Positions 12,380-59,040 of a DNA stretch of 64,000 nt are shown in pieces (the first letter of the stretch is position 1; every line of letters begins with the position of its first letter). Source of the DNA: Pristiophorus japonicus (Eukaryota); the NCBI RefSeq assembly GCF_044704955.1, contig NC_091989.1:8990001-9054000 (forward strand), in the 5' to 3' direction. Below the pieces are notes generated by a model. It was not told where the DNA came from. It saw nothing but the letters and a program-made list of their open reading frames with translations, and did not search any database. A program made the position numbers and the translations under genes.

Positions 12380-13505
12380 AAACATAGAATCATGCAACAC
12401 TTACAGCACAGAAGGAGGCCATTCGGCCCATCATGTCTGTGCCAACCGACCAAGAGCTACCCAGCCTAATCCCACTTTCCAGCTCTGGGTCCGTAGTCCT
12501 GTCGGTTACGGCACTTCAGGTGCTCACCCGAGTACTTTTTAAATGTGGTGAGGGTTTCTGCCTCTACCACCCTTTCAGGCAGTGAGTTCCAGACCCCCAC
12601 CACCCTCTGGGTGAAGACATGTTTCCTCATCTCCCCTCTAATCCTTCTACCAATTACTTTAAATCTATGCCCCCTGGTTATTGACCTCTCTGTTGAAGGA
12701 AATAAGTCCTTCCTGTCCACTCTATCTAGGCCCCTCATACGTTTATACACCTCAATGAGGTCTCCCCTCAGCCTCCTCTGTTTCAAAGAAAACAACCCCA
12801 GCCGATCCAATCTTTCCACATAGCTAAAATTTTCCAATCCTAGCAACATCCTCGTAAATCTCCTCTGTAACCTCTCCAATGCAATCACGTCCTTCCTGTA
12901 ATGCAGTGACCAGACCAGCAGTACTCCAGCTGTGGCCTAACTAGTGTTTTATACTGTTCAAGCATAACCCCCCTGCTCTTGTATGCTATGCCTCGTCTAA
13001 TAAAGGAAAGCATTCCATATCCATATACCTTTTTAACTACCTTATCGAACTGTCCTGCTACCTTTAAGAATCTGTGGACATATACTCCAAGGTTCCTCTG
13101 TTCCTCCCCACCTCTCAGTATCCTCCCATTTAATGTGTATTCCCTTGCCTTGTTGCTCCTCCCCAAATGCATTACCTCACACTTTTCCGGATTGAATTCC
13201 ATTGCCACTTTTCTGCCTAACTGACCAGTTCATCGATACCTTCCTGCAGTTTAGAGCTTTCCTCCTCACTGTCAACCACACGGCCAATTTTTGTATCATC
13301 TGCTAATTTCTTTATCATGCCCCCTACATTTAAGTCTAAATCATTAATATATACTACAAAAAGTAAGGGACCGAGTACTGAGCCCTGTTGAACCCCAGTG
13401 GAAACCGCCTTCCAGTCGCAAAAACTCCCCTCAACTGTTAACCTTTGCTTCCTGCCAATGAGCCAATTTAAGATCCAATTTGCCACTCCCCCTGGGATCC
13501 CATGG
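12380..13505 (-). mobile_element. CR1 LINE, 5'-truncated RT fragment
   Basis: GV(Q)QGSVLGPLLF...YINDL...LADDTK RT motifs (13217-13505), LVRPQLEYC, TRGHRFK; frameshifted. Confidence 0.92.
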
Positions 13506-13644
13506 GTGTTACCATTGTTCAGCAGGTCAGGCAGCTGTGGAGAGAGAAACAGAGTTAATTTGGACCCTTCTTCAGAACTAAAAAATAAAATGTGGAAAGG
13601 CGTATTAATAAAATCAGCAAGAGGGTAAGGAGGAAATCTATACA

Positions 13645-14296
13645 TAAACAGAGCTGTAGTGATACCCGTCCTCCTGTATGGCTCAGAGATGTGGATCACA
13701 TACAGTAGACACCTCAGATCGCTGGAGAAATACCACCAACGATGTCTCCGCAAGATCCTACAAATCCCCTGGGAGGACAGACGCACCAACATTAGTGTCC
13801 TCGACCAGGCCAACATCCCCAGCATTGAAGCACTGACCACACTCGACCAGCTCCGCTGGGCAGGCCACATAGTCCGCATGCCAGACACGAGACTCCCAAA
13901 GCAAGCGCTCTACTCGGAACTCCTATATGGCAAGCGAACCCATGGTGGGCAGAGGAAATGTTTCAAGGACACCCTCAAAGCCTCCCTGATAATGTGCAAC
14001 ATCCCCACTGACACCTGGGAGTCCCTGGCCAAAGACCGGCCTAAGTGGAGGAAGTGCATCCGGGAGGGCGCTGAGCACCTCGAGTCTCGTCGCCGAGAGC
14101 ATGCAGAAACCAAGTGCAGGCAGCGGAAGGAGCGTGCGGCAAACCAGTCCCACCCACCCTTTCCCTCAACCACTGTCTGTCCCACCTGTGACAGAGACTG
14201 TAATTCCCGTATTGGACTGTTCAGTCACCTGAGAACTCACTTTTAGAGTGGAAGCAAGTCTTCCTCGATTTCGAGGGAGTGCCTATGATGATGATA
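13645..14296 (+). mobile_element. RTE-clade LINE 3' fragment
   Basis: ORF 13659-14246: LLYGSE.W, QLRWAGHIVRMPDTRLPKQALYSEL, C2H2 finger CPTC...HLRTH; tail GTGGAAGCAAGTC...(ATG)n. Confidence 0.93.
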
Positions 14297-30134: not shown

Positions 30135-30845
30135 ACTCGCCTCTGAGTCAGAACATTGTCGGTTCCAGTCCCACTCCAGAGACTTGAGCACAAAAGTCTA
30201 GGCTGACACTCGCAGTGCAGTGCTGAGAGAGTGCTGCACTGTCGGAGGTGCCCTATATCAGATGGGACGTTAAACCGAGGCCCCATCTACCCTCTCGCAT
30301 GGATGTAAAAGCATCATCATCATAGGTAGTCCCTCAGAATTGAGGAAGATTTGCTTCCACTCTAAAAATTAGTCCTTAGGTGGCTGTACAGTCCAATATG
30401 CGAACCACAGTCTCTGTCACAGGTGGGACAGATAGTCGTTGAGGGAAAGGTTGGGTGGGACAGGTTTGCTGCACGCTCTTTCCGCTGCCTGCGCTTGTTT
30501 TCTGCATGCTCTCGGGAATGAGACTCGAGGTGCTCAGCGCCCTCCCGGCTGCACTTCCTCCATTTAGGGCGGTCTTTGGCCAGGGACTCCCAGGTGTCCC
30601 ATGACATTAACTCAAAGAAGAGCAGGGGAGTTATTCCCAGTGTCATGGCCAATATTTATCCCTAAATCAACATCACTAAAAACAGATTATCTGGTTGTTG
30701 TTTGTGGGAGCTTGCTGTGCAGAAATTGGCTGCTGCGTTTCCCACATTACAACAGTGACTACACTTCAAAAGTACTTCATTGGTTATAAAGCACTTTGGG
30801 ATATCCTGAAGTTGTGAAAGACAATGTATGAATGTAAGTCTTTAT
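30135..30845 (+). mobile_element. SacSINE1-like SINE interrupted by an RTE 3' fragment (30313-30598, minus)
   Basis: SINE head at 30135-30310 and tail at 30610-30845; the insert encodes WESLAKDRPKWRK...CPTC...HLRT. Confidence 0.8.
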
Positions 30846-31427
30846 TTTTTTGAATAATTTTCCCCTGCCGTTTAAATATGTCTGTTATTGAGTAAAATAC
30901 AATATAGATTTCTTCTTAAAACTGGTCAGTTTGCTTTACATGCCATTCACTTCTCTAACTCTGTCTGAGGATTGAAAGTGATATTGGATAACGACCAGTG
31001 CCAATTTTTACGATAGGGCAGTGTTACAGCACATGATAGAACCGGCAGTGGTACAGGGCTATTTTAATAACAGATTGCAGGAAAATTGAGCTCATATACA
31101 TTATGAAAAGATCATTTTCTTGTCGGGTCAGAAAAATTAAAGGAGCAGTTTTCAGCTAAGGTTACTGCTAAAACGATCAATATTAATGACTGGCATGAAA
31201 AATGATCGGACGCATTGCTACGAATCTAGCCGCCACTTTTCTTTTACAATAGAACAGCAAAAATGTTCTCCCTATCGTCAGATGTCGATGCAGAAAAGGC
31301 CAAGTATGCCTCTTGCTCTCTTATGCATCATTGTGCTCTTAAAGTGGCTGAACTAGAATTAGAGAGAAGGTAATTATTGAACTTCACAAATATAACAATC
31401 AATGGTTTCAGATGAGACCATCATTAA

Positions 31428-32250: not shown

Positions 32251-32424
32251 AGCACAATCTTCATTCAGCTGAAAGTACTCTCACCTCTGGATCTGGGCTG
32301 AAACACATCATCTGAGCCTTGCAACCTAGGCCAGTACCATTGGAGTTCAGAGGCTAACTCAATCATGCTTCAGTTCTATTCTGAGTGACAACTATCTCTA
32401 AAATTAGCAAATGTAAAGGTCAAA

Positions 32425-32875
32425 AGAAAAGAAAGCCGTGCATTTCTATAGCACCTTTCACAACACTTTGCAGCCAATGAAGTACTTTTTTTGAAGCATC
32501 ATCACTGTTGTAATGTCGGAAACACAGCAGCCAATTTGCACACAGCAATCTCCCACAAACAGCAACGTGATAGTGACCAGATAATCTGTTTTAGTGATGT
32601 TGATTGAGTGATAAATATTGGCCCCAGGACACCGGGGAAAACTCCCTTGCTCTTCTTCAAAATAGTGCCATGGGATCTTTTACATCCATCTGAGAGAGCA
32701 GACGGGGCCTTGGTTCAACATTTCAGCTGAAAGACAGCACCTCTGACAGCGCAGCACTCCCTCAGCACTGCACTGGAGTGTCAGCCTAGATTCTTGTGCT
32801 CAAGTCCTTGAAGTGGGACTTGAACCCACAACCTTCAGACTCCAAGGCGAGTGTGCTGCCCACTGAGCCACTGGC
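32425..32875 (-). mobile_element. SacSINE1-like SINE, full length
   Basis: Homologous to 2588-3060. Confidence 0.85.
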
Positions 32876-33371: not shown

Positions 33372-34320
33372 TGTTATATATGCAGACTATAAATATACTC
33401 TCTGTATAGTCACTGTATAGTTGCATAAGATGGAGACTTGTTTACCTGATGTACTATCAATAAGGTTTACACTGTGTATGTACTAAGCTGGCACCACTAG
33501 AGGGTGCAACTGGTGGAGATCGGGGTTTCCTGCCCTGGTGGCAGGGGCTGTATAAAAGGGGAGCCACCATGCGGCAGCCTCACTCTGGAGTTACGAATAA
33601 AGGACCAAGGTCACTACAGTTTGAGAACAAAACATTGCCTCGTGGAATCATTCATAAGTACACTATAGACATAATAACTGGCGACAAGAATACGGACTTT
33701 CACGCGATTATGGCTACCTTTGGCACACTAAAAGACTTCGCAGAGGGTGATGATTTGGATGCTTTCACGGAAAGGTTCAAGCTATATTTCGTGGCAAACG
33801 ACCTGGCAGGGGAGACGGACACATCAGCGGAGAAGTGCAAGGCTATGCTGCTGACCAGTTGTGGGCCCAAGGTCTACCGCCTCGTCAGGGACTTACTGGC
33901 ACCCACTAAGGCCAAGGATAAGACAAACGATTAGCTGACTGAACTAATTCGCGACCAACTAAAACCAAAACAGAGCATCCTCACGGCCAGACACAGATTC
34001 TACACTCACCACGGACCTGAGGGCCAGGAGATTGCAAAATATGCTGCCGACCTCAGGAGACTTGCGGCACCGTGTGATTTTGGCATGCATCTCAACGAAG
34101 CATTGCGAGACATCTTCATTATAGGAATTGGCCACGAGGGCCTCCTTCACAAGCTATTATCTGCCGACACCACAGTCAACCTGCAGAAGGCCATCAGCAT
34201 CAGTCAGGTGTTCATGACCTCGACCTGCAGCACCAAGCAAATTATTCATCCTGTGGACTCAAACCCGGCAAGTCCTGTACACAGAATGGTGTCTTTCACA
34301 GGCAAGACTGTAGAACGTGG
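33372..34320 (+). mobile_element. Gypsy (Mag-like) retrotransposon: 5' LTR, PBS and decayed gag
   Basis: LTR 33372-~33677 (TGTTATA start, TATAAAA, AATAAA), PBS-like TGGCGACAAG at 33679, gag from ATG 33710 (MATFGTLKDF...DAFTERFKLYFVAND...LLTSCG...LRDIFIIGI) with a stop and a frameshift. Confidence 0.85.
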
Positions 34321-34584
34321 TTGTTCAGAGTGTTTGCTCGCTATCATCACCCAGCTATTCCCTATGTGGACTGTGGGGGGGCGGGGGGTGAGAATGTATG
34401 TATGTAGCCATGGACACACACGTGGATCACACCCAGTACCCACTGGAACCTCCACTGCATCATCGAACCATCCAAACTGGTAATCACTACCCAACGTTGT
34501 GGCAAAAGGACTTGGGGGTTAACAGGGAGAGAGCCAAGCCAAAGCACAGCCAAGGTTCAAAGAGCAGAACAGTGCTGACCCATC

Positions 34585-35025
34585 AAAGAAAGAAAAACTT
34601 ACCTTTATATAGCGCCTTTCACAACCACAGGACGTCCCAAAGCACTTTACAGCCATTGAAGTACTTTCTGAAGTGCAGTCACTGTTGTAATGTAGGAAAC
34701 ACGGCAGCCAATTTGCGCACAGCAAGCTCCCACAAACAGCAATGTGATAATGACCAGATCATCTGTTTTAGTGATGTTGATTGAGGGATAAATATTGTCC
34801 CCGGGACACCGGGGATAACTCCTCTGCTCTTCTTCAAAATAGTGCCATGAGATCTTTTACATCCACCCGAGTGAGCAGTTGAATGTCTCATCCGAAAGAC
34901 GCCACTCCTGACAGTGTGGCACTCCCTCAGCACTGAATTTTTGTGCTCAAGTCTGTATGAATGGGACTTGAAGCCACAACCTGACTCAGAGTTAATGGTG
35001 CTACACACTGAGACATGGCTGACAT
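34585..35025 (-). mobile_element. SacSINE1-like SINE
   Basis: Homologous to 2588-3060 with internal deletions. Confidence 0.8.
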
Positions 35026-36668: not shown

Positions 36669-37049
36669 TATTTGCAGTAGAAAGATAGATTCAAAGTGAT
36701 TGTACTGTCGTCCTTAACAGTATAGACTGTGTGAAGTGATCTTCAAATACATTTACATCCTAATTGAACTGTCCTTCCATCACTCACCTGTGTTCAGCAG
36801 CACTGTTTAATGACAAGGTAAACATGAAGTAATCAAGTATGACATCTTGACTTCAGGCACTGCGGAAAACAAAATTATCCACATTCATTTTGGGGGAGAA
36901 AAGACATGAGCATGTTACAATTTCAGGCCTATAATGAAAAGTGCAAATGGGAAAAACAGCATTTATAAGAAAAATTATATTTTGACATAAGACTGGAACA
37001 GCATGTCATCATTGAGCATTCATCGAATTGATAATGTTAGCACATCTGA

Positions 37050-37460
37050 AGAAAGAAGACTTGCATTTATATAGCACCTTTCACGACCATCGGATGTCTC
37101 AAAGCACTTTACAGCCAATGAAGAACTTTTGAAGTGTAGTCACTGTTGTAATGTGGGAAATACTGCAGACAGTTTGAGCACAGTAAGCTCCCACAAACAG
37201 CAATGTGATAATGACCCAGATAATCTGTTTTAGTGACGTTGATTGAGGGATAAATATTGGCCCCAGGACACCAGGGAGAACTCCCCTGCTTTTCTTCGAA
37301 ATAATGCCACGGGATCTTTTACGTCCACCCGAGAGAGCAGACGGGGGTCTCGGTTTAACGTCTCATCCAAAGGACGGCACCTCCGACAGTGCAGCGCTCC
37401 CTCAGCACTGCACTGGAGTGTCAGCCTGGATTTGTTTGTGCTCAAGTCCCTGGAATTGAA
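37050..37460 (-). mobile_element. SacSINE1-like SINE
   Basis: Homologous to 2588-3060. Confidence 0.85.
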
Positions 37461-37540
37461 ATCAATAGAGAGGGATTTCAGTCCCAACATGTTCAACCAG
37501 TTTGAGATTCAGATGCAAGTTCTTTCACGTGGATGCCAAG

Positions 37541-37738
37541 TGATAGAGAATTCAAACAGGCTGCATTTAGACAGGTTGAGAAAACACAGACTCCCATGTC
37601 TACGTGCAACTGAGCACATTGCATTAAGTCATCAATCAACATTGACATTTTAGGACCTTTGGGTAGCGAGCCAATTAAAGGTTAAAAGACTATCAAATGA
37701 GCCAATAAGGTCAAAGAAGGCGAGTTCTTTTCTGTAAA
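37541..37738 (+). repeat. 5' LTR, U3 part only
   Basis: Matches 43425-43621 with 3 substitutions and 1 indel, then joins directly to gag. Confidence 0.93.
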
Positions 37739-38318
37739 CACTGGCTGCAAGACAGACTGGGGAAAAATTGCAGCCTGCCAACAGAAAGGAACAGAGGAGG
37801 TCCTGGAGTATGACGAGCGGTTTAGATGCACGTGGCTAGAACATTCGGGTATGAATAATACGGATGAGGAAATGGATGAACAAGTGTTTGGACCCCTGAA
37901 AGCAGCTTTCGTGGCAGGTCTAAAGCCAGAACTGTCCAAAATGCTTAAGGTAGTGTTACCGGACTGGGAAGGTAGAGGAACTACCTTTGCAGCATTGGTG
38001 GATCGATGTGACCAATTAGATCGGGATATGGGAGCTAAAGTCCGAGCTGTACAGGCTATGGGATGGAAATCCCAGGATTCCGATAAACATTTATTCGGAA
38101 AATTACCCAGAAAATGTCATTATTGTGGGAAAGAAGTTCAATGGGCCAAGACGTGCAGGGCAAAACAGCAAGGTCGTGGCCGGGGAAGAGGACGCAGCCA
38201 GGGATACAATTCAGCCAACAAACCAGGCTTGTCACAAGATAACGACCTCATAGAAGCATTTAAGCGACTGACAATACAACAACAGAAGGAGTTACTTGGG
38301 ATAGCAAAAAACAATTAG
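37737..38318 (+). pseudogene. gag: ERV gag, 5'-truncated (CA C-terminal part and NC)
   Basis: Open frame upstream of ORF 37851 contains the major homology region CQQKGTEEVLEYDERF; degenerate zinc knuckle CHYCGKEVQWAKTC; RG-rich tract; TAG at 38316. Confidence 0.9.
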
Positions 38319-38392
38319 AGCCCACCCTGGCCCCCCTCCTCGCACTAATACAACAAAGGGGAGATGGGCTATATATAACTGTGAGGGTGGGC
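38306..38392 (+). other. Candidate -1 programmed ribosomal frameshift signal
   Basis: A_AAA_AAC at 38306-38312 in gag phase, 7-nt spacer, GCCCACCCT (38320-38328) complementary to AGGGTGGGC (38384-38392); protease lies in the -1 frame. Confidence 0.7.
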
Positions 38393-41300
38393 GATAAGGA
38401 TGTGGACTGTCTTTTAGACACAGGGGTGGAATTAACATGCTTACCCCTACAATATGGAGACTTTTTGCCGTTGGATGGTAGGGCACATACAGCCTATGGA
38501 GTTGGGGGCCATAAAATGGAAATTAAAAGGACAACACCGATACTTATAGGGCTGGGTCCACATGAACTAACCACGCCGGTCTGGATAGGCCCAGTAGATC
38601 AACCCCTTTTGGGAATGGACGTTCTAATCCAAGTAGATTCATCGTTGCATTTCGAGGATGGTCGGGTGACATGGTCAATTAGAACTTTGAAGAAAGAAGA
38701 ATTGAAGGAACACCCGATATGGGCTAAAGATAAGAACGATTGTGGCCTACTCCAGATTTACCGGGACCAAGCCTCCATGCACTAAACAGTATCCCATCAG
38801 TCCAACTGCCATCGCAGGAATCTTACCGGTTATTCAGCAATTGGAGAAACAAAGGGTGCTTATTAAAACGCATAACTCCTCCAATAGCCCCGTGTGGCCG
38901 GTACAGAAATCTAATAAGACTTGGCATTTGACTGTCGATTATAGGAAAGCTAACCAGTGTATTGATCAAAAAGCTCCTTTGGTCGCAGATCCCTCCACCA
39001 TTTTTAATGCCCTCAAACCGGAACATAAATATTTCTCGGTTATAGATATGGCCAACGGATTTTGGTCGGTGCCTCTGGCACCAGAGGTTCGACAGTGGTT
39101 TGCTTTCACGGTCCAAGGACAACAGTATACTTGGACCCGGTTGCCGCAGGGTTTCCACAACAACGCTATGGTATTTCACATGGCTTTACAAAGCCATTTG
39201 CGAGAATTACCTCCCTTGTCGTCCACAGTCATCCAATATGTAGACGATATCCTGCGAGCTTCAAACACGGAAGAACAGCATGAACAAGATTTATGAGCTT
39301 TGCTGGACCACCTTTGGCTGAAAGGACATAAAGCCAACATCGACAAAGCACAAATATCCCAAGAAGAGGTTGTATACCTGGAACAAAAGATTTCACAAGA
39401 AAAGAGAGAACTTACCCAGGATAGAACTGCAGCCATTCAGGCTGCTAAAAAAACCACCACTATTCAGGAACTAAGATCTTTTTTGGGATTGTGTAACTTT
39501 AACAGAAATTGGATTGACTCCTTCACACAGCTTGCTCAGCCATTGAATGATATTTTAAAGGTGAAACGTGCCTCTAAAGAAGCCATCACCCTCACTAAGG
39601 AACAGCAAGAGGCCTTCCTGAGTTTGAAAAAGGCTTTGTGTTCGGCACCGGCTCTGGGAATCTCCGACAGTGGTAAGCCATTTACCCTGTTTGTCCATGA
39701 GAAAGAAAGATATATGACAGCTATACTGACACATGAACATGGGGATCGGCAAAGACCTATTGGCTATTATTCGGCAAAACTCGATGCGGTAGCCCTCGGA
39801 TGGGGAAGTTGCCTAAGGGCCATGGAAGCTACATGTCGAGCGGTAATAATCACTGCGGGTCTAGTCCTCGACCAAAAGCTGATTGTCAAGTGTCCCCACA
39901 CCGTACATGCTTTGCTGTCTATGAATACAATGTCTCAGGTGACGGCAGCTAGATGGACCCGCTGGACAGCAGTTTTGGAAGCTCCTAATCTCCATATCGT
40001 CCGGGCCAGCCCGGTTAATCCCGCAACTATGCTCCCAATGTCAGAATCGAGGGAGCAAGAGGGGGGAGAATGTGAAGAGCATGACTGCGTGGAGATTTTA
40101 AAAGAAACAGAAGAAGCAGCCTTAGCAGCAGAGGAGCCTCTGCACAACCCAGACCTCATCCTGTTTACAGATGGTTCCTCCTTTATTGACAATGGTACCA
40201 GAAAAGCAGGATGGGCAGTTACAACCTTATATGAGGTAGTGGTAAAAGGATGTTTACCCTCAGGAACGTCAGCACAACAGGCCAAGTTACGGGCCCTGTC
40301 AGAAGTATGTCGAATAGCAGAAGGACAGACAGCTAATGTCTACACAGATTCGCGTTATGTTTTTGGAGTCGCTCACGACTTTGGTCTGTTATGGCGGAAA
40401 AGAGGATTCCTCACTGCTGCTGGTACACCGATCTGAAATGGAAAAGAAGTCCGAGACTTACTAGAGGCCATACAATTACCTCAGGAAGTGTCCATCCTGA
40501 AGTGCAAGGCCCATACCAAGGAAAATATCACAGAAGCACAGGGAAATGCCTTAGCCGACCAGGCAGCTAAAGATGCCGCCTCACAGGGCGTTCCTCCAGA
40601 AGAACCAACACAGATGTGCAGATTGAAAGCACTCAGGACTCTGACTCGAGACCTTCAAACAATGCAAGTGCTCCCAAGAGGAAAAATGGACATGGATTGA
40701 GGCAGGAATTAAGCTATGTGAAGATGGTGTCTGGAGACAAAGAGTTACCGACAAGCCAGTCGCGCCACAAGCGCTTATGCCTTTTTTAGCCCAACAGATC
40801 CACTCGTGGGGACACTTGGCCTCACAACAGATGACAGCACAGTTCCAGAAAAGCTGGTGGGGTCGGGGATTTAAAAAACATGCCCAGCTGGTAGCAGACC
40901 GCTGTGTGGTCTGCCAGAAAAATAATTCTGGACCCATCACGGTAATGCCCCAACTGAGGCCCCCTGCCCCTATCGGACCATTCCAGCATCTGCAGGTTGA
41001 TTATATATCTCTTCCTTCATGCCAAGGACACACTAACATTCTTGTCATGGTCGACAGATTCTCTAGATGGGTAGAAGCTGTCCCAACTAAAAGAGCCACA
41101 GCCAATCACACTGCAAAGGTCTTGTGGAAGGATTACATTCCCCGATGGGGAGTCCCGAGTAGCATTGACTCAGATCAGGGAACACACTTCACAGGTTCTG
41201 TCTGCCAAGAAGTCTGTAGGTTACTGAACATTACGTGGGATTTACACTGTCCTTATCATCCACAATCATCAGGACAAGTAGAACGAATGAATCGAACTCT

Positions 41301-41772
41301 GAAACAACAGCTTGCCAAATATCACCAAGAAGGAACACCATGGCCCGAGGCACTACCAATAGTGCTATGTAGCATTAGGGCAACCCCAAACAGAACTACA
41401 GGTCTAAGCCCATTTGAAATTATAACAGGAAGACCCATGTCGCTGCCAGAAACTATCGATTTACGGAAAGCTGATGTTCACTGAATGAGTGACGCTTTGT
41501 TATCATACTGTCAGAACCTAACCAATGCTATTAGTTCTGTTTCCCAACAGGTATCGGCAGCTTGGGGTAATCCACCCGAAGGAGGACACGACATCATCCC
41601 GGGAGTCTGGGTGTATGTGAAAAAGTTGCATAAAGAACCTTTGGGTGCCAAGTGGGAGGGACCTTATCAAGTGTTATTGACCACCCAGGCAGCTGTTAAA
41701 GTCCAAGGAAAGAAAGCCTGGATCCACGCTTCACACGTTAAACGAGCACCCGTAACTGAAGCTGAAATCTAA
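38306..41772 (+). pseudogene. pol: ERV pro-pol (protease, RT, RNase H, integrase), disrupted
   Basis: LLDTG; WPVQK...VDYRKAN; RLPQGF; YVDD; FTDGSS, YTDSRY, KCKAH; HSWGH...CVVC, DSDQG, VERMN, WEGPY. Stops at 39294, 40434 and 41482; frameshifts near 38755 and 40665. Confidence 0.95.
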
Positions 41773-41796
41773 TAAGGACAATTATTTTTTGCCAAA

Positions 41797-43176
41797 ATGT
41801 ATAAATTTACTGTATTCCTGACTGTAGGTATTCTAGGCATAGGCCTACTTCTTACTAGCCGACCCTCTGCACCAAATGGAAATAGTAGGGTAGCAAGGTA
41901 ATTACATGTAAATACCTTTTTATATATGTCATACATTTATGCCAAACAAGGTAACATTTCTAGTTGTTGGGTGTGTACGCATATTCCTATTCACTCAAAG
42001 GGAGGGATTCCCTTGAGGCCAGTTCCCTTGAATATCTCGGAAATGGCTGAGTGGATAATTTATCAAAACAAAACAGGCAAGGCATTTCAGGATAAGGAAA
42101 ACTGGGCACGTAAATGGAAGTCAGCAGGTTACAATCTGACTACCTTTGAAGGGGGATACTAACCGTGCTACAATAATTCCAAACGGCCCCCATTTTTTGT
42201 TATCACTAATACAACGGGAATAGGAAGACCAAGGGAATCGGTCTGTCTGATTAGAAACATCAAAGGAGGCCAAAATATGGTGTATAGTAATTGCTCCCGG
42301 AATTATAATATAATCAAGCCACGGAACCGTCCAAACTGAGCCGATGTGGGAATTTTTAACGTAACGGGGATTCTGAATAAAACAGATGGAAAAACCTGGA
42401 CAGGCCCTGGAGTGTTGCTGACAAAGAAACAGCTAACATTCATTGCCTATAATGGCACCTATTGGCTGTGTGACCACAAGGCCTACCCTTGGCTGCCCCA
42501 GAATTGGACGGGATCCTGCTATTTAGCCTACATTGTGCCTTATATGTATCATATAAAGTCACTGTCGGAACATTTACACCGTCCTAAGAGCGCTATCACA
42601 GAAACAGAGAGGTTCGTTGCCATTCTGATCCCCAGGTATGGGACCGCCAGACTGGCAAGGGAATCCATCAACATGGCATCCGTTGTGGAACGGGTAGCCA
42701 ATGATACCTCAGAGGCCCTAGTTAAAATCAATGCAGAAATGGTAGCAATCCGCACAGTAACCCTACAGAATAGACTGGCCCTTGGTTACATCCTGGCTGA
42801 AAAGGGAGATACTTGCGCCCTACTCAGAACTGAGTGTTGCACGTATATCCGAGATAGCTCCGAAGAAATGACCCACTTAGCGGAGCATATCCAAAAGGAG
42901 GTAGAAAAACTTAAGCAACTCCCATCATTCACTTTGTGGAGCGGTGCCACTGAATGGCTAGGTTCAATAGGAACTTCATTGGTGGAAGGTTTAATTTTAT
43001 TTGTTGTAATTATTTTACTTTTATATTGTTTGTTTATGTTGATTAAATGTTGTTGCGACCAGGCGGCTGTAGCTGCTGTCCCGCAGGTGAGACACCTTGC
43101 AGGTCCCAGCAGACCGTCTGTACGTGGCACAGGGGTATGTTATGCTTCATGGAAGGTTGTTTACTGGTTGAACTAA
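41797..43176 (+). pseudogene. env: ERV env, gamma-type, single frame with three premature stops
   Basis: ATG 41797 with hydrophobic signal peptide, SU CWVC (CXXC), mutated furin site HRPKS/AI, immunosuppressive domain LQNRLALGYILAEKG, CX6CC (CALLRTECC), TM helix. Confidence 0.93.
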
Positions 43177-43424
43177 AATATTGATTTGGATTAAATTGGA
43201 ATAAGGTTAATTAACCTACTAAAACCAGACTTCCATTGTGGCCACGATGGAACTCGGGTTGGTGTAAATTTGTGTGGAAGCTACTAGTCCGGACATGTGG
43301 CGAAACACATCAACAAATTTTAGAAGGAAACTCTATTAACATGTATGAAATTATTTTGTAGAATGTTTAACCAGTGATACCTGATGTTTTATGATTCAGT
43401 TTGTGAAAGAATCAAAGGGGGGAT

Positions 43425-43775
43425 TGATAGAGAATTCAAACAGGCTGCATTTAGACAGATTGAGAAAACACAGACTCCCATGTCTACGTGTGACTGAGCA
43501 CATTGCATTAAGTCATCAATCAACTTGACATTTTAGGACCTTTGGGTAGCGAGCCAATTAAAGGTTAAAAGACTATCAAATGAGCCAATAAGGTCAAAGA
43601 AGGCGAGTTCTTTTCTGTAAATTGAACCAGGTATAAGTACAGCCATTTTGACCATGTAGTCTCAGAAGGACAAAGGCCTGGCTTAAAGCCAGAAGCTTGT
43701 TGCTGCTGCCAAAATAAAGTTACATTAAAACTACAACCGGAGTTCGTATTTCATTGGAAATTAAGAGATCTAACA
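43425..43775 (+). repeat. 3' LTR, complete (351 bp)
   Basis: TGATAG...CTAACA; two GAGCCAAT boxes, TATAA at 43632, AATAAA at 43713. Confidence 0.95.
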
Positions 43776-43881
43776 CCAAGAATGCTGAAGCCTGTCAAGA
43801 ATGCGTTTGAACTCAGGCACTCCGGCGACCTTTCGAAATGAAGCAGAAGTCTCAGGATCACTCCTTGGAGGCAACGGCTGC

Positions 43882-44274
43882 CCTCTCCTCCCATGGCCCA
43901 CGATTCCACTGTAAGAGCCACCAAAGACTAACCTCTCCTCCCATGGCCCACGATTCCACTGTAAGGGCCACCAAAGACTATCCTCTTCTCCCATGGCCCA
44001 CGATTCCACTGTAAGGGCCACCAAAGACTATCCTCTCCTCCCATGGCCCACGATTCCACTGTAAGGGTCACCAAAGACTAACCTCCCCTCCCATGGCCCG
44101 CGATTCCACTGTAAGGGCCACCAAAGGCTCACCTCTCCTCCCATGGCCCACGATTCTACTGTAAGGGCCATCAAAGACTATCCTCTCCTCCCATGGCCCA
44201 CGATTCCACTGTAAGGGCCACCAAAGACTAACCTCTCCTCCCATGGCCCACGATTCCACTGTAAGGGCCACCAA
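43882..44274. repeat. Minisatellite, 50-bp unit, ~8 copies
   Basis: CCTCTCCTCCCATGGCCCACGATTCCACTGTAAGGGCCACCAAAGACTA(A/T) at exact 50-bp period. Confidence 0.95.
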
Positions 44275-44770: not shown

Positions 44771-45059
44771 ATATTAAATACTAAGCTCGTAGCATGGTAC
44801 CACGGATTGTGATAGCCTGTGGCGTTTTGCACAATTGTGTCATCCAGCAAGGCATTCAGCTAGAGGAGGAGGGAGACACAGATGGTGACACAGTGGAGAT
44901 GGAATGTTAGCCACAGGAAGCAGAAGCAGATGAGTCAACAGACACAGCAACTCTAGTGGTGCTGCGATGTGTAAAGGACTGTTATCAATGCACATTTCCC
45001 CACATGGAAAACCCCAAAATTGCGCCCAAACTTCCTTTACATTAATTCCACCTCGTTGT

Positions 45060-45873
45060 GGGAAGAACGAAGTCATTGTTTTCAGTCCCCGCCACAAACT
45101 CCGTTCCTTAGCTACTGACTCCATCCCTCTCCCCAATTTCTGTCTGAGGCTGAACCAGACTGATCGTAACCTTGGTGTCGTATTTGACCCCGGAATGAGC
45201 TTCCGACCACATATCCGCAGCATAATTAAGACCGCCTATATCCACCTCCGTAACATCGCCCGTCTCCGCCCCTGCCCCAGCTCATCCGCTGCTGAAACCG
45301 TATCGATTCCTTTGTTACCTCTAGACTTGACTATTCCAACGCACTCCTGGCTGGCCTCCCACATTCTACCCTACGTAAACTTGAGGTGATCCAAAACTCG
45401 GCTGCCCATCTCCGAACTCACACCAAATCCTGCTCACCCATCACCCCTGGCTCCCGGTTAAGCAACGACTCGATTCTCATCCTTGTTTTCAAATCCCTCC
45501 ATGGCCCTCGCCCCTCCCTATCTCTGTAATCTCCTTCAGCCCCACAACCCCCCCCGAGATGTCTGCGGTCCACTAATTCTGTCCTCTTGAGCATCCCTGA
45601 TTATAATCGTTCCACCGTTGGTGGCCGTGCCTTCTGTTGCCTGGGCCCCAAGCTCTGGAACTCCCTGCCTAAACCTTTCCGCCTCTCTACATCTCGTTCC
45701 TCCTTTAAGATGCTCCTTAACACCTACCTCTTTGACCAAGCTTTTGGTCATCTGCGCCAATTTCTCCTAATGTGCCTCAATGTCAATTATTTTGTGTCAT
45801 AATGCTCCTGTGAAGCGCCTTGGAACGTTTTACTACATTATAGGCGCTATATAAATACAAGTTGTTGTTGTTG
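45060..45873 (+). mobile_element. L2 LINE 3' fragment
   Basis: RNLGVVFDP.MSF..HI...AY.HLRNIARLRP; (TTG)n tail. Confidence 0.9.
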
Positions 45874-46388: not shown

Positions 46389-49300
46389 CAAGAACATAAG
46401 AAATAGGAACAGGAGTAGGCCATACGGCCCTCGAGCCTGCTCCACCATTCAATAAGATCATGGCTGATCTGATCATGGACTCAGCTCCACTTCCCTGCCT
46501 GCTTTATTCCCTTATCGCTTAGAAATCTGCTCATCTCTGCCTTAAATATATTCAATGACGCAGCCTCCACAGCTCTCTGAGGCAGCGAATTCCACAGATT
46601 TACAACCCTCTGAGAGAAGAAATTTCTCCTCATCTCAGTTTTAAATGGGCGGCCCCTTAACCTGAGACTATCCCCTTTTTTAGTTTCCCCTATGAGTGGA
46701 AATATCCTCTCTGCAACCACCTTTTCAAGCCCCCTCATTATCTTATATATTTCGATAAGATCACCTCTCATTCTTCTGAACTCCAATGTGTCTAGGCCCA
46801 ACCTACTCAACCTATCTTCATAAGTCAACCCCCTCATCTCCAGAATCAACCTAGTGAACCTTCTCTGAACAGTCCCCAATGCAAGTATATCCTTCCTTAA
46901 ATACGAAGACCAAAACTGTACGCAGTACTCCAGGTGTGGCCTCACCAATACCCTGTACAGTTGTAGCAGGACTTCTCTGCTTTTATACTCTATCCCCCTT
47001 GCAATAAAGGCCAAGATTCCATTTGCCTTTTTGATTACTTGCTGTACCTGCATACTAACTTTTTGTGTTTCATGCACAAGGACCCCAGGTCCCGCTGCAC
47101 TGCAACACTTTGCAATTTTTCTTCATTTAAATTATATTCCTATTATTTCAGCCAAAGTGGATAACCTCACATTTTCCCACATTATGCTCCATCTGCCAAA
47201 TTTTTGCCCACTCACTTATCCTGTCTATATCCCTTTGCAGATTGTTTGTGTCCTCCTAATTTGCTTTCCCACCCATCTTTGTATCATCAGCAAACTTGGC
47301 TACATTACACTCGATCCCTTCATCCAATTCATTAATATAGATTGAAAATAGTTGAGGACCCAGCACCGATCCCTGCGGCATCCCATTAGTCACTGTTTGC
47401 CAACCGGAAAATGACCCATTTATTCCGACTCTCTGTTTTCTCTCAGTTAACCAGTCCTCTATCCATGCTAACATATTACCCCCAACCCCCTGAGCTTTTA
47501 TCTTGTGCATTAACCTTTTATGTGGCACCTATCTTATCGAATGTCTTCTGGAAATCCAAATACATCACATCTACTGGTTCTCCCTTATCCACCCTATTCG
47601 TTACTTCCTCAAAAAACTCCATCAAATTTGTCAAACATGATTTTCCTTTCATAAAACCATGCTGACTCTGCTTGATTGAATCATGCTTTTCCAAATGTCC
47701 CGCTACTGCTTCTTTAATAATGGACTCCAGCATTTTCCCAACGACAGATGTTAGGCTAACTGGTCTATAGTTTCCTGCTTTTTGTTTGCCTCCATTTTTA
47801 AATAGGGGCGTTACATTTACGGTTTTCCAAACCGCTGGGACCGCCCCAGAATCCAGGGAATTTTGGTAGACTACAACCAATGCATCCACTATCTCTGCAA
47901 CCACTTCTCTTAAGACCCTAGGATGAAGCCATCAGGTCCAGGGGACTTGTCCGCCTTTAGTCCCATTTCAACTAATACTACTTCATTAGTGACAGTGATT
48001 GTATTAAGTTCCTACCTCCCTATAGTCCCTTGATTATCCACTATTGGGATGGTTTTAGTGTCTTCCACCGTGAAGACCGATACAAAATATTTGTTCAGTG
48101 TCTCTGCCATTTCCCTGTTCTCCATTATTAATTCCCCAGTCTCATCCTCCAGGGCGCCAACATTTACTTTAGCCACTCTTTTCCTTTTTATGTAATTGTA
48201 GAAACCCTTACTATCTGTTTTTACATTTTGTGATAGTTTACTTTCATAATCTATTTTCCCTTTCTTAATAATTTTTTTAGTCGTTCTTTGCTGGCTTTTA
48301 AAAATTTTCCAATCCTCTGGCCTGCCACTAATCTTGGCCACATTGTATGCCTTTGTTTTCAATTTTACACCATCCCTTATTTCCTTAGTTAGCCACAGAT
48401 GGTTATCCCTTCTCTTACAGACTTTCCTTCTCATTGGGATATATTTTTGTTGCGAGTTATGAAATATCTCTTTAAATGTCTGCCACTGCTCATCAACCGT
48501 CCCACACTTTAGTCTATTTTCCCAGTCCACTTTAACCAACTCTGCCCTCATACCTTTGTAGTTTCCTTTATTTAAGCTTCGGACCCTGGTTTGAGAACCA
48601 GCTTTCTCACCCTCCAACTGAATTTGAAATGTAACCATATTATGGCCACTCATTCCTAGAGGATCCTTTACTAAGAGATCATTTATTAATCCTGTCTCAT
48701 TACGCAGTACTAGATCTAAGATAGCCTGCTCCCTGGTTGGTTACACAATGTACTGCTTAAGGAAACGATCCCAGATACACTCTACGAACTCCTCCTCAAG
48801 ACTACCTTGGCCAATTTGCTTTGTCCAATCAACATGAAGGTTAAAATCGCCCATGATTATTGCCGTTCCTTTATTACAAGCCTCCATTAGTTCTTGATTT
48901 ATACTCTGTCCAACAGTGTAGTTACTGTTAGGGGGCCTATAGACTACGCCCACCAGTGACTTTTTCCCCACATTATTCCTTATCTCCACCCAAACTGATT
49001 CAACATCTTGATCTTCTGAGCCAATATCGTTTCTCACTAACGCACTGATCTTATCCTTTATTAACAGAGCTACCCCACCTCCTTTTCCTTTCTGTCTGTC
49101 CTTCCGAATTGTCAAATACCCCTGAATATTTAGTTCCCAGCCTTGGTCACCTTGCAACCATCTCTGTAGCGGCTATCAGATCGTACCCATTTGTATCTAT
49201 TTGTGCCGTCAACTTATCAATTTTGTTACAAATGCTATGTGCATTCAGATAAAGAGCTTTTAAATTTGTTTTCTTACCATTTTTTCTTGCTTGTTTCTTC

Positions 49301-55202: not shown

Positions 55203-57113
55203 CTAAGACCGCCCGCTGCGCTTGGTCTTGTTGACTCCAGCGCTGCCCGCAGGCAGTGACGCAGCATTTCTTGGGTTGGTACCAAGGTTATTCTTTCGAA
55301 CATCTCGGGTAATGCGCACTTCTTGATGGGGGGGTAGAGGGAGGGGCAGGCGGTGATGTGGAAGGCCTGGCTTGAGCCTCATCAGAGGCTAGTCTGGGGA
55401 TTGGAGTGGGAGTGACGGTTGATTCTGTCAATAGGCGCGGGGTCTGGGCGTGTTCCCTTATTGCAGCAGCTAACTCCGACATTCCCTCCCTCATGTGCCC
55501 TGACTGTGTGTCAACTACCTGCGACAATCCCTCCCTCATGTTCACCGACAGTGTCTCAACTACCTGCGACATTCCCTCCCTCATGTTCACCGACAGTGTC
55601 TCAACTACCTGCGACATTCCCTCCCTCATGTTCACCAACAGTGTCTCAACTACCTGCGACATTCCCTCCCTCATGTTCACCAACAGTGTCTCAACTACCT
55701 ACGACATTCCCTCCCTCATGTTCACCAACAGTGTCTCAACTACCTGCGACATTCCCTCCCTCATGTTCATCGACATTGTATCCGCTGCCTGAGACATTCC
55801 CTCCCTCATGTTCACCGACAGTGTCTCAGCCACCTGCGACATTCCCTCCCTCATGTTCCTGGACAGTGTTCCCATTTCTCGTGAGAGTGTTGTTGCTTCT
55901 CCCGACAGTCCCGATACCTCATCACCCACCCCACTGATGGTGTCCAGGAGTGATCGTGTAAGGTCAATGCTCTCCACACTCATTGCCATCATCTGAACCA
56001 CATCTGTTAGATCCTGCACCTCAGGAGAGCGCTGTCAAGCTCTCCTTCCCCTCCTCACCCTGGGTGTGCCTCGCTACATCCCACTGGGACCCACAGCCTC
56101 GGACTGTGGAAAACCATGTAATGTCCCAGCAACACTCGTACCACTCAGGAAAGGGGCTGGCACCTCAATGGGCGGCACCTGCACTTCCTCCAGAGTGAGT
56201 ACAACTTCATCCAACACCTCCCCCTCCCCCTCACCCCCATGCTTTTGATCTGGAAGGTGGGATTGGAAGATGTTCTCCTTATGGCTTGTCCGCATCGGAA
56301 TCTTCTTCTGCATCGTCAGGTTTGGCCTCAAGTTCTGCAAAATATATCAGAACAGACAAATGGTTAGCAGCAGAGGAGGGGGCAGGGTGGGTGGCATGAG
56401 TAGGCTCACACAGCGCAGGCCGCAGGCTCAGTTGAAGGACCACAATGAATGATAGCACATTGTATCAACCGAAGCGTAGCTGACGGAGACATTCCCATGA
56501 ACCGAAGCTTGGCTAGCCCACGCAGTACTTAACATTTAGCATAGCCAGACTGTGGAATTTGCAGGACTTACCCTCTTCCTCGAGTGTGGGCCCAGCTTGT
56601 GCTGCGGTGGTTGCTTTTCTCCAGGCAGGACCCATCAAAGCAACGACCCTGTCTTCCAAGCGTGTCAGTGGCTGCAGATTTGCCGGGCCTCCTCCTGTTC
56701 GAGTTCTTTCCCTTTTGTTGTGTGTCATGTTCCTCTGCAACGATGAAAATATAGCTTTTTAGAGAGGGTGTCTTTCTGCTGGGTGGGACATATACAGCTG
56801 GTCACATTTACAATTGCAATTCCAGTGAATAAATGAAACTATTACTTACACTAACTACTTGACCAAGGTCCTGCCACTTCTTTTTGCACTGGCCTCCAGA
56901 CCTCGGGGTGGTCACCATTGCATAGTAATCTTCTACAAGTTGGTTCCAGCGTTTCTTCATTTCTTTTGGTAAAACTTTTATGTGACTTCTGCTGGTGTCC
57001 AGCTCGTGCCATCTGGCCTCAATCACAGTAACCGGTGCCTCCACTTCATCCTGTGAGAAATTCTTGGTCCTTGAGCCGTATTGTATCTTGTATTGCAGCT
57101 CCGATTTCTCCAA
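55203..57113 (-). pseudogene. Harbinger Myb/SANT-like DNA-binding protein, three exons, decayed
   Basis: Exon 1 57113-56850 (NFSQDEVE...W...RSGGQCKKKWQDL), GTAAGT donor; exon 2 56734-56572 (KRERTRTGGGP) after TTGCAG; exon 3 from 56334 (acidic tract, then repeats), with stops and frameshifts. Confidence 0.8.
55470..55870 (-). repeat. Coding tandem repeat, 45-bp unit, 9 copies
   Basis: GACATTCCCTCCCTCATG recurs every 45 bp; encodes NMREGMSQVVETLSV on the minus strand. Confidence 0.95.
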
Positions 57114-57922: not shown

Positions 57923-59040
57923 ATGTCAGCCGTGGCTCAGTGGGCAGCACTCTCGCCTCGGAGTCAGAAGGTTGTGGGTTCAAGTCCCACTCCAGGGACT
58001 TGAACACAACAATCTCGGCTGACACTGCAGTGCAGTGCTGAGGGAGTGCCGCACTGTCGGAGGGGCAGTGCTGAGGGAGCGCCGCACTGTCGGAGGGGCA
58101 GTGCTGAGGGAGCGCCGCACTGTCGGAGGGGCAGTACTGAGGGAGCGCCGCACTGTCGGAGGGGCAGTACTGAGGGAGCGCCGCACTGTCGGAGGGGCAG
58201 TACTGAGGGAGTGCCGCACTGTCGGAGGGGCAGTACTGAGGGAGTGCCGCACTGTCGGAGGGGCAGTACTGAGGGAGTGCCGCACTGAGGGAGCGCCGCA
58301 CTGTCGGAGGGGCAGTACTGAGGGAGCACCGCACTGTCGGAGGGGCAGTGCTGAGGGAGTGCCGCACTGTCGGAGGGGCAGTGCTGAGGGAGTGCCACAC
58401 TGTCGGAGGGGCAGTACTGAGGGAGTGCCGCACTGTCGGAGGGGCAGGACTGAGGGAGTGCCGCACTGTCGGAGGGGCAGTACTGAGGGAGTGCCGCACT
58501 GTCAGAGGAGCAGTACTGAGGGAGTGACGTACTGTCGGAGGGGCAGTGCTGAGGGAGTGACGTACTGTCGGAGGGGCAGTGCTGAGGGAGTGCCGCACTG
58601 TCGGAGGGGCAGTACTGAGGGAGTGCCGCACTGTCGGAGGGGCAGTACTGAGGGAGTGCCGCACTGTCGGAGGTGCAGTGCTGAGGGAGTGCCGCACTGT
58701 CGGAGGGGCAGTACTGAGGGAGTGCCGCACTGTCGGAGCTGCCGTCTGCCCCCTCAGGTCAATGTAAAAGAATCCGAAGCACTATATCGAAGAAAAGCAG
58801 CGAGAATTCTCCCCCTGGTGCCCTGGCCAATATTTATCCTTCAATCAACCATTTCACTAAAACAGATGATCTGGTTATTATCACATTGCTGTTTGTGGGA
58901 GCTTGCTGTGCTCAAACAGACTGCTGCGTTTCCTCCAGAACAACAGTGATTATACTTCAAAAGATATTTCATTCGCTGTAAAGCGTTTTGGAAATTCTTA
59001 GGTTGTGAAAGGCGCTATAGAAATGCAGTCTTTCTTTTTT
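57923..59040 (+). mobile_element. SacSINE1-like SINE with internal minisatellite expansion
   Basis: Head 57923-58034 and body/tail 58738-59040 are collinear with 54247-54702. Confidence 0.9.
58035..58737. repeat. Minisatellite, 33-bp unit, ~21 copies
   Basis: GT(A/G)CTGAGGGAGTGCCGCACTGTCGGAGGGGCA, with one shortened unit near 58280. Confidence 0.95.

What the first reader, a model, noticed from the sequence alone, without database searches (positions are those of the whole stretch)
37536..43780. Young, env-containing endogenous retrovirus in a probable shark genome
Seen: perfect 5-bp TSD CCAAG, LTR overlap differing by only 3 substitutions and 1 indel in ~198 bp, YVDD-type RT, HHCC/DDE/GPY integrase and a full-length env frame. 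Several stops are TGA at plausible CGA positions (inference: CpG decay). Chondrichthyan retroviruses are thinly described, so this may be an unnamed family, and an intact pol/env is nearly reconstructable.
Basis: partly seen in the sequence, partly recalled or inferred. Interest (0 to 1): 0.7.

Follow-up and report, generated by a model that had tools for sequence, protein, structure and literature searches.

The report
Frameshifting fish-type retrovirus fossil in shark
This is a dead copy of a many-copy retrovirus in a probable shark genome, and its gene layout suggests that it and several fish relatives made their enzymes by ribosomal slippage, a method textbooks do not assign to this branch of retroviruses.

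Summary
The provirus is real. The TSD, LTR differences and RT/IN motifs check out, but env holds three stops and a deletion has removed the end of the 5' LTR, the PBS and most of gag. The copy is dead. It belongs to a high-copy family (sibling contigs about 2% away), and LTR divergence gives roughly 10-35 My on an assumed shark rate, so it is only relatively young. Pol falls in a clade of teleost ERVs, apart from gamma, WDSV/WEHV, SSSV, Xen1 and SnRV; env is gamma-type and closest to shark ERVs.

Protease lies in the -1 frame to gag, behind an in-frame A AAA AAC heptamer, a 7-nt spacer and a strong stem (z -3.7). Sibling contigs show no gap there. Related Gags end in G-N, K-N or L-N (9 of 11, against 0 of 18 in-frame Gags), the reading of the three classic slippery heptamers. 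This points to programmed -1 frameshifting in a class I-like lineage, which reviews describe as using readthrough; one cod-type relative has an in-frame stop at the same position. Ten paper searches found no report. Not tested at the bench.

The parts
37536..37540 (.). left target-site duplication CCAAG
37541..37738 (+). 5' LTR remnant (first 198 bp, U3 only); ends before the TATA box
   Evidence: 98% to the 3' LTR, and the match stops at 37738
37735..37738 (+). deletion junction with 4 shared bases; the end of U3, R, U5, PBS, leader and most of gag are missing
   Evidence: LTR match runs to 37738; sibling gag contigs start at 37735 and one has 240 loose letters before it
37739..38318 (+). 3' part of gag: end of capsid, one degenerate zinc knuckle (38115-38156), RG-rich stretch, stop TAG at 38316-38318
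   Evidence: 27-33% identity to L069 and P0228 Gag
38306..38312 (+). slippery heptamer A AAA AAC, in register with the gag frame
38320..38392 (+). predicted stimulatory stem-loop after a 7-nt spacer; perfect 9-bp outer helix 38320-38328 with 38384-38392
   Evidence: -35.9 kcal/mol, z -3.69, 0 of 200 shuffles as good; only 1 of 600 other 80-nt windows of the element folds as well
38264..38785 (+). protease frame, -1 to gag, overlapping it by 52 nt; LDTG at 38414
38706..40700 (+). RT and RNase H; YVDD at 39237; frameshift at the protease/RT border; stops at 39294 and 40434
40645..41772 (+). integrase with HHCC, DDE and GPY; frameshift at the RNase H/integrase border; stop at 41482
41797..43176 (+). 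gamma-type env (CWVC 41965, ISD 42763-42816, CX6CC 42814-42840, membrane anchor 42991-43044); stops at 41899, 42160, 42337
43414..43423 (+). polypurine tract
43425..43775 (+). complete 3' LTR, 351 bp, TG...CA; TATAA at 43632, AATAAA at 43713
43776..43780 (.). right target-site duplication CCAAG

Best explanation
A germ-line-integrated, now dead copy of a high-copy class I-like retrovirus with a gamma-type env. In the parent virus most ribosomes stopped at the gag TAG and made Gag. A minority paused at the stem 7 nt behind A AAA AAC, slipped back one base and made Gag-Pro-Pol. Env was probably made from a spliced RNA (from general retrovirus biology; not examined). Integrase made the 5-bp duplication. 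This copy then lost its promoter end, PBS and most of gag across 4 shared bases and gathered stops and indels. Shown: anatomy, frame offset, heptamer, predicted stem, gap-free siblings, Gag-end signature in relatives. Inferred: that ribosomes actually slip, the codons in relatives, the host, the age and the route of the deletion.
For: Protease is -1 to the knuckle-bearing gag frame, with an in-frame heptamer. The stem starts exactly 7 nt later; a perfect helix of 9 bp or more at that spacing occurs at 2 of 2042 positions sampled in the element. PMC3835772 (passages) gives a 6-9 nt spacer and lists AAAAAAC for MMTV, BLV, HTLV and EIAV. High-depth sibling contigs from two organism labels span the junction with 0 gaps (X6 record 18, X5 record 10). 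The junction is colinear with the in-frame stop of relative L069. Related Gags end G-N, K-N or L-N: 9 of 11 hits with a knuckle and a 30-70 aa tail, 11 of all 34 gag-side hits, against 0 of 18 in-frame Gags and about 1.8% expected. In the Danio family, Gags P0230/P0231 end E-K-N while the fused model P0228 of the same 90% cluster reads E-K-K-L at that point, the -1 reading. Astyanax P0007 has F-K-L at the matching distance from the catalytic Asp and its frame starts upstream of it.
Against: No bench or ribosome-profiling evidence. The heptamer was seen as DNA only in this window; for relatives it is read from protein ends. The only other clade member whose junction DNA was obtained, L069, is in frame with a TGA. 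Only the Danio-type Gags are tied to the Pol clade by cluster membership; the others are tied by 30-40% Gag identity. Off-frame junctions are common in decayed class I ERVs (14 of 82 scored at -1 in PMC1224870 Table 1). Sibling contigs are collapsed assemblies, not individual copies. The host is inferred.
Confidence: 0.85

Rival explanations
1. An ordinary readthrough class I ERV whose founder copy suffered a one-base slip in an A-run at the gag end, later amplified in trans, so the offset is a lesion.
For: L069 and 17 other comparison loci are in frame; A-runs are prone to slips; siblings are only about 2% apart and could share one damaged founder.
Against: It does not explain the stem at the right spacing, nor G-N, K-N and L-N ends in Gag lineages that are mostly 22-47% identical to each other, nor the Danio E-K-N / E-K-K-L pair.
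Confidence: 0.07
2. The offset is programmed, but it is bridged by RNA polymerase slippage on the A-run, or by a small splice, rather than by the ribosome.
For: The window has six A in a row; the database model P0228 joins the two frames in a way I could not inspect.
Against: G-N and L-N ends would come from heptamers with short runs; a stem 7 nt downstream is the ribosomal geometry (PMC3835772).
Confidence: 0.05
3. One reading: a very recent, nearly intact insertion, perhaps still polymorphic.
For: Only 3 substitutions between LTRs, two of them an adjacent CpG-type pair; perfect TSD; the lower bound of the non-CpG estimate is under 1 My.
Against: Six stops, two pol frameshifts and a large deletion; 74 of 3997 and 84 of 4251 letters differ from sibling contigs; sharks mutate slowly (7e-10 per generation, PMC10587355).
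Confidence: 0.1

Closest known systems
Unnamed teleost class I-like ERVs (Cyprinus P0186, Coilia P0004, Alosa P0005, Gadus cluster P0006, Astyanax P0007, Danio P0228)
   Same: One Pol clade (SH-aLRT 100 and 99); 49-62% identity over RT-RNase H; Danio and Astyanax show the -1 signature.
   Different: Probable shark host; no more than 63% identity; the cod-type member L069 has an in-frame TGA.
Elasmobranch ERV env proteins (Heterodontus P0073, Scyliorhinus P0071, Heptranchias P0072, Pristiophorus, Stegostoma, Hemitrygon)
   Same: CWVC, ISD and CX6CC; 31-54% identity; TM 76% to Heterodontus over 140 residues.
   Different: The window's env is broken; which Pol these env genes go with was not seen.
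Gammaretroviruses (MLV group)
   Same: YVDD, GPY integrase tail, single knuckle, gamma-type env; best solved-structure matches are the p80 RT/RNase H chains (E 7e-126).
   Different: Separate clade, 36-39% identity; they use in-frame readthrough.
Epsilonretroviruses WDSV/WEHV, and SSSV, Xen1, SnRV
   Same: Aquatic hosts; 32-38% RT-RNase H identity.
   Different: Separate branches; in-frame gag-pol in the four whose junction was held; the WDSV-type records have YMDD and an unrelated env.
MMTV, BLV, HTLV and EIAV frameshift signals
   Same: The same AAAAAAC heptamer with a 6-9 nt spacer (PMC3835772 table).
   Different: Those are beta-, delta- and lentiviruses; here a single shift sits at gag-pro, relatives have pro-pol in one frame, and the predicted stimulator is a stem-loop with no pseudoknot partner found.
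CmiERV lineages II/III and the anamniote 'ERVs-GTE' catalogue
   Same: Cartilaginous-fish class I ERVs; epsilon-related Pol with gamma-type env and no accessory genes.

Membership tests
Endogenous retrovirus (Retroviridae) | TG...CA LTRs, TSD, polypurine tract | tested here: met
   the 5' LTR is truncated
Endogenous retrovirus (Retroviridae) | gag-pro-RT-RNase H-IN-env order | tested here: met
Endogenous retrovirus (Retroviridae) | primer-binding site | tested here: not met
   lies inside this copy's deletion
Class I ERV (gamma/epsilon-related) | RT closer to gamma/epsilon than to spuma, lenti or SnRV | tested here: met
   (E 7e-126, against 1e-59 for spuma-type and 1e-17 for HIV-type chains); searches place the clade as sister to gamma+epsilon, on a long-branch root
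Class I ERV (gamma/epsilon-related) | GPY/F integrase tail, single knuckle, gamma-type env (CXXC, ISD, CX6CC) | tested here: met
Class I ERV (gamma/epsilon-related) | gag and pro in one frame, stop readthrough (PMC1224870, PMC3835772, PMC13517186) | tested here: not met
   -1 offset with slippery site and stem; siblings gap-free. Hence 'class I-like' in this report.
Gammaretrovirus | Pol inside the MLV/FeLV/GALV/REV clade | tested here: not met
Epsilonretrovirus (WDSV/WEHV) | Pol inside the WDSV/WEHV clade; YMDD; large non-gamma env; accessory ORFs | tested here: not met
   no long ORF between env and the 3' LTR; the 5' accessory position is deleted
SSSV/ZFERV group | Pol groups with SSSV; UGA readthrough | tested here: not met
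   L013 lies on another branch; ZFERV itself was not in the set
SnRV-like (clade Huo) | Pol groups with SnRV | tested here: not met
   32% identity; used as outgroup
Programmed -1 frameshift signal | in-register X XXY YYZ heptamer, 6-9 nt spacer, stable downstream structure, -1 overlap | tested here: met
Programmed -1 frameshift signal | measured -1 product | not testable with these tools
   needs a reporter or ribosome profiling
CmiERV II/III; ERVs-GTE lineages; Repbase/Dfam families | sequence identity to a catalogued family | not testable with these tools
   no repeat library is held; bioRxiv supplements are closed; the CmiERV supplement was not opened

The most novel reading that the evidence does not exclude
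A so far undescribed, deep-branching class I-like lineage of shark and teleost retroviruses expresses Gag-Pro-Pol by -1 ribosomal frameshifting using all three classic heptamers. The cod-type branch has switched to stop readthrough at the same position. Because the clade sits as sister to gamma and epsilon retroviruses, frameshifting may be the older state and readthrough a later, repeated invention.
Probability: 0.45. Interest if true: 0.72.

Novelty: new variant of a known kind. Interest (0 to 1): 0.58.

Why it matters
Translation strategy is used as a 'global' marker that separates gamma/epsilon (class I) from other retroviruses (PMC1224870), and a 2026 review lists only readthrough for the fish retroviruses it covers (PMC13517186, passages). 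A class I-like clade with frameshifting breaks that rule. It also offers close relatives that differ in recoding mode at the same position, which makes the switch between frameshifting and readthrough directly testable. In practice, pipelines that score a gag-pro offset in class I elements as damage would misjudge the state of these fish families. The insertion itself is an ordinary dead provirus.

Tried and rejected
No host genome is held, so no census of copies or solo LTRs was possible. No RNA holder was listed. Summed depth is not a copy number. Scans for more junction DNA of the clade gave only L069; L067 lacks a protease motif and L074 was not scorable, and searches added no clade member. 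The gag profile search spilled into the integrase tail: 34 of the 150 listed hits were gag-side and only those were scored. The careful mixture tree did not finish; one search shows the quick fallback on 31 of the 71 rows. A first 73-nt fold cut off the outer helix and gave only z -1.98. No pseudoknot partner was found for the hairpin loop, and my capsid major-homology pattern did not match. Rfam: 0 matches in the window. No host gene was identified among 23 other long frames. Four look-ups of earlier findings gave nothing relevant. Rejected: gypsy retrotransposon (env, GPY tail and RT affinity), assembly artefact (siblings in independent runs), domesticated env (three stops).

Full report
Observation. 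The element runs from 37541 to 43775 between two copies of CCAAG. The right LTR is complete: 351 bp, TG...CA, with TATAA, AATAAA and a polypurine tract in front. The left LTR is only its first 198 bp and differs by 3 substitutions and 1 indel; two of the substitutions are adjacent and form the CA/TG pair that CpG decay produces. Pfam finds protease, RT, RNase H, integrase core, H2C2, the MLV-type integrase tail and TLV_coat, and YVDD, HHCC, DDE and GPY are present. Env is not intact: it has three stops, no canonical furin site and a departing ISD. Pol has two frameshifts and three stops.

The deletion. After base 37738 the sequence jumps from U3 into the end of gag. Sibling contigs in runs X5 and X6 begin to match at 37735, and the X5 contig has 240 further letters in front. 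Other copies therefore carry more sequence there, and the join has 4 shared bases. TATA box, R, U5, PBS and most of gag are gone, so this copy cannot start from its own promoter or be primed. Repair by microhomology after integration and a faulty plus-strand transfer before it both fit (the latter is recalled, from no call); I cannot separate them.

Family and age. No host assembly is held. Of 22 listed runs, 20 hold part of the stretch and 4 hold half or more. I laid 4 of them. The 8 listed pieces each of X5 (organism B) and X6 (organism A) differ from this copy at 74 of 3997 and 84 of 4251 letters; the 8 listed pieces of X9 (organism C) differ at 268 of 2663, and X9 has almost no depth on LTR or gag. 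In X1 the summed depth over the element is 1.6e5-6.9e5, against 13.8 for one flank contig. That is not a copy number, but it fits a high-copy family. Transitions make up 137 of 196 (X6) and 130 of 180 (X5) listed kinds of change, counts that include the flanking SINE. On the 2.2e-10 per year that Han assumed (PMC4422223, part 1 of 2 of the text read), LTR divergence gives 35 My (7-101), or 12 My (0.3-64) from the one non-CpG change; slower rates give more. The direct shark estimate is 7e-10 per generation (PMC10587355, passages).

Relationships. Over RT-RNase H the best matches are a carp cluster (62%), Coilia (55%), Alosa and Astyanax (53%), a Gadus cluster (51%) and Danio (49%); 16 reference retroviruses give 32-39%. 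In a 71-row tree the window lies in a 13-row clade with these teleost elements (SH-aLRT 100), apart from gamma, WDSV/WEHV, SSSV, Xen1, SnRV and the four other shark or skate Pols sampled. A 31-row mixture-model quick tree agrees (99) and sets the clade as sister to gamma plus epsilon, on a long-branch root. Env is gamma-type, and 10 of the 11 named hits among 18 are sharks or rays; its TM is nearest Heterodontus. This is my main evidence for a shark host. The surrounding repeats look like shark SINEs and LINEs only from memory. The Pol/env mismatch may be recombination, common in such elements (bioRxiv 10.1101/2021.11.23.469661, passages and parts 1-2 of 3 of the Results read; supplements closed), or poor annotation of shark pol genes.

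The gag-pro junction. The frame with the zinc knuckle ends at TAG 38316; the protease frame overlaps it by 52 nt in the -1 frame. The last gag codons are GCA AAA AAC AAT TAG, which contain A AAA AAC in register. Seven bases later a stem begins with a perfect 9-bp helix: -35.9 kcal/mol, z -3.69, 0 of 200 shuffles as good. The ends of that fold were chosen after seeing the helix; a shorter cut gave z -1.98. As a fairer control, only 1 of 600 other 80-nt windows of the element folds as well, none of the 13 other heptamer matches has as stable a fold, and such a helix at such a spacing occurs at 2 of 2042 positions. Sibling contigs cross the site without gaps: X6 38182-38589 and X5 38266-38737. 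Of 21 comparison loci, 18 are in frame (17 by rule, L013 by ORF coordinates), one is +1, two could not be scored, and none has a knuckle-bearing gag at -1. The cod-type relative L069 has an in-frame TGA, and the residues on both sides line up without a gap with the window's -1 junction.

A clade trait. Read in the gag frame, G GGA AAC, A AAA AAC and U UUA AAC give G-N, K-N and L-N. Of 150 listed hits of a profile search, 34 were gag-side. Eleven of the 34 end in that pattern, and 9 of the 11 that have a knuckle and a normal tail. The two misses are Boreogadus P0249, which groups with L069, and Esox P0267, whose cluster mate P0387 does end G-N. Controls: 0 of 18 in-frame Gags, and 10 of 342 other proteins, of which 5 proved to be Gags of the Danio-type family. 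Named carriers are Pimephales, Onychostoma, Paramormyrops, Esox and the catshark S. canicula. Within the Danio cluster, P0230 and P0231 end E-K-N where the fused model P0228 reads E-K-K-L. In the Gag tree a G-N-ending protein is sister to the cod-type group (98/97), which suggests that readthrough is the derived state there. Limits: these are protein ends, not codons; several hits are near copies of each other, giving about seven independent lineages with the window; and most Gags are not tied to their own Pol, so the trait may be wider or narrower than the Pol clade.

Literature. Passages read say that gamma- and epsilonretroviruses use readthrough (PMC3835772), extend this to SSSV, ZFERV and SnRV (PMC13517186), and call translation strategy a global marker while ascribing the imprecision of ERV frame calls to later indels (PMC1224870; table in PMC4724089). 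All protease-bearing full-length frog ERVs in bioRxiv 10.1101/2024.07.05.601823 are in frame (passages). 'Frameshift' does not occur in the main text of PMC8672886 or PMC10699275. PMC6001957, PMC4977317, PMC10435555, PMC11089739 and PMC3833384 were seen as passages only. Of ten searches, five were aimed at the frameshift, and no listing or passage reported it in fish class I elements. The library lacks most subscription papers and all repeat-database notes; Basta et al. 2009 on teleost retroviruses (recalled, not seen) may bear on this. No supplement was opened.

Verdict. The insertion is a real, dead provirus of a kind known from cartilaginous fish, moderately old and less intact than first described. 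What lifts it is a well-formed -1 frameshift signal shared by its family and, by protein signature, by fish relatives in a lineage expected to use readthrough. I put programmed frameshifting at 0.85 and the full novel case, unreported and clade-wide, at 0.45. New variant of a known kind; interest 0.58.

Noticed in passing
window 43882-44274: A 50-bp tandem array, 7.9 copies at 93% match, about 100 bp beyond the right TSD; no link to the provirus seen.
   Followed up: no
window 37043-37432, 32402-32792, 34581-34957, 30597-30853: Several copies of one SINE-like repeat on both strands, with very high depth in all four runs; one copy ends about 100 bp left of the insertion.
   Followed up: partly
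window 33464-34483: Two frames that read like a decayed gypsy-type gag from memory; no Pfam match.
   Followed up: partly
window 46481-47122 (-), 44934-45802 (+), 13217-13909 (-): LINE-like fragments (recalled resemblance); only the last has a weak RVT_1 match, E 1.2e-4.
   Followed up: partly
window 55470-55869 and 58032-58738: Tandem arrays of 45 bp (8.9 copies) and 33 bp (about 21 copies) that create long open frames.
   Followed up: no
window 38706-41772 against 41797-43176: Pol is nearest teleost ERVs while env is nearest shark ERVs; Alosa appears on both sides. Possible cross-class transfer or env exchange.
   Followed up: partly
L067 (8140 bp): A cod-type relative with RT-integrase and a 427-aa env frame but no protease motif and a fragmented gag.
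   Followed up: partly
P0123: A Pol labelled 'Plesiomonas sp. MAG' groups with loach ERVs; probably fish DNA in a bacterial bin.
   Followed up: no
P0167 and P0120: Two Pols branch below both this clade and gamma/epsilon. P0167 is from Pimephales, which also has G-N-ending Gags, so frameshifting may reach deeper.
   Followed up: no
L006, about 2228-2232: A gammaretrovirus-type record whose gag and pro are offset by +1; probably a defect of that record.
   Followed up: no
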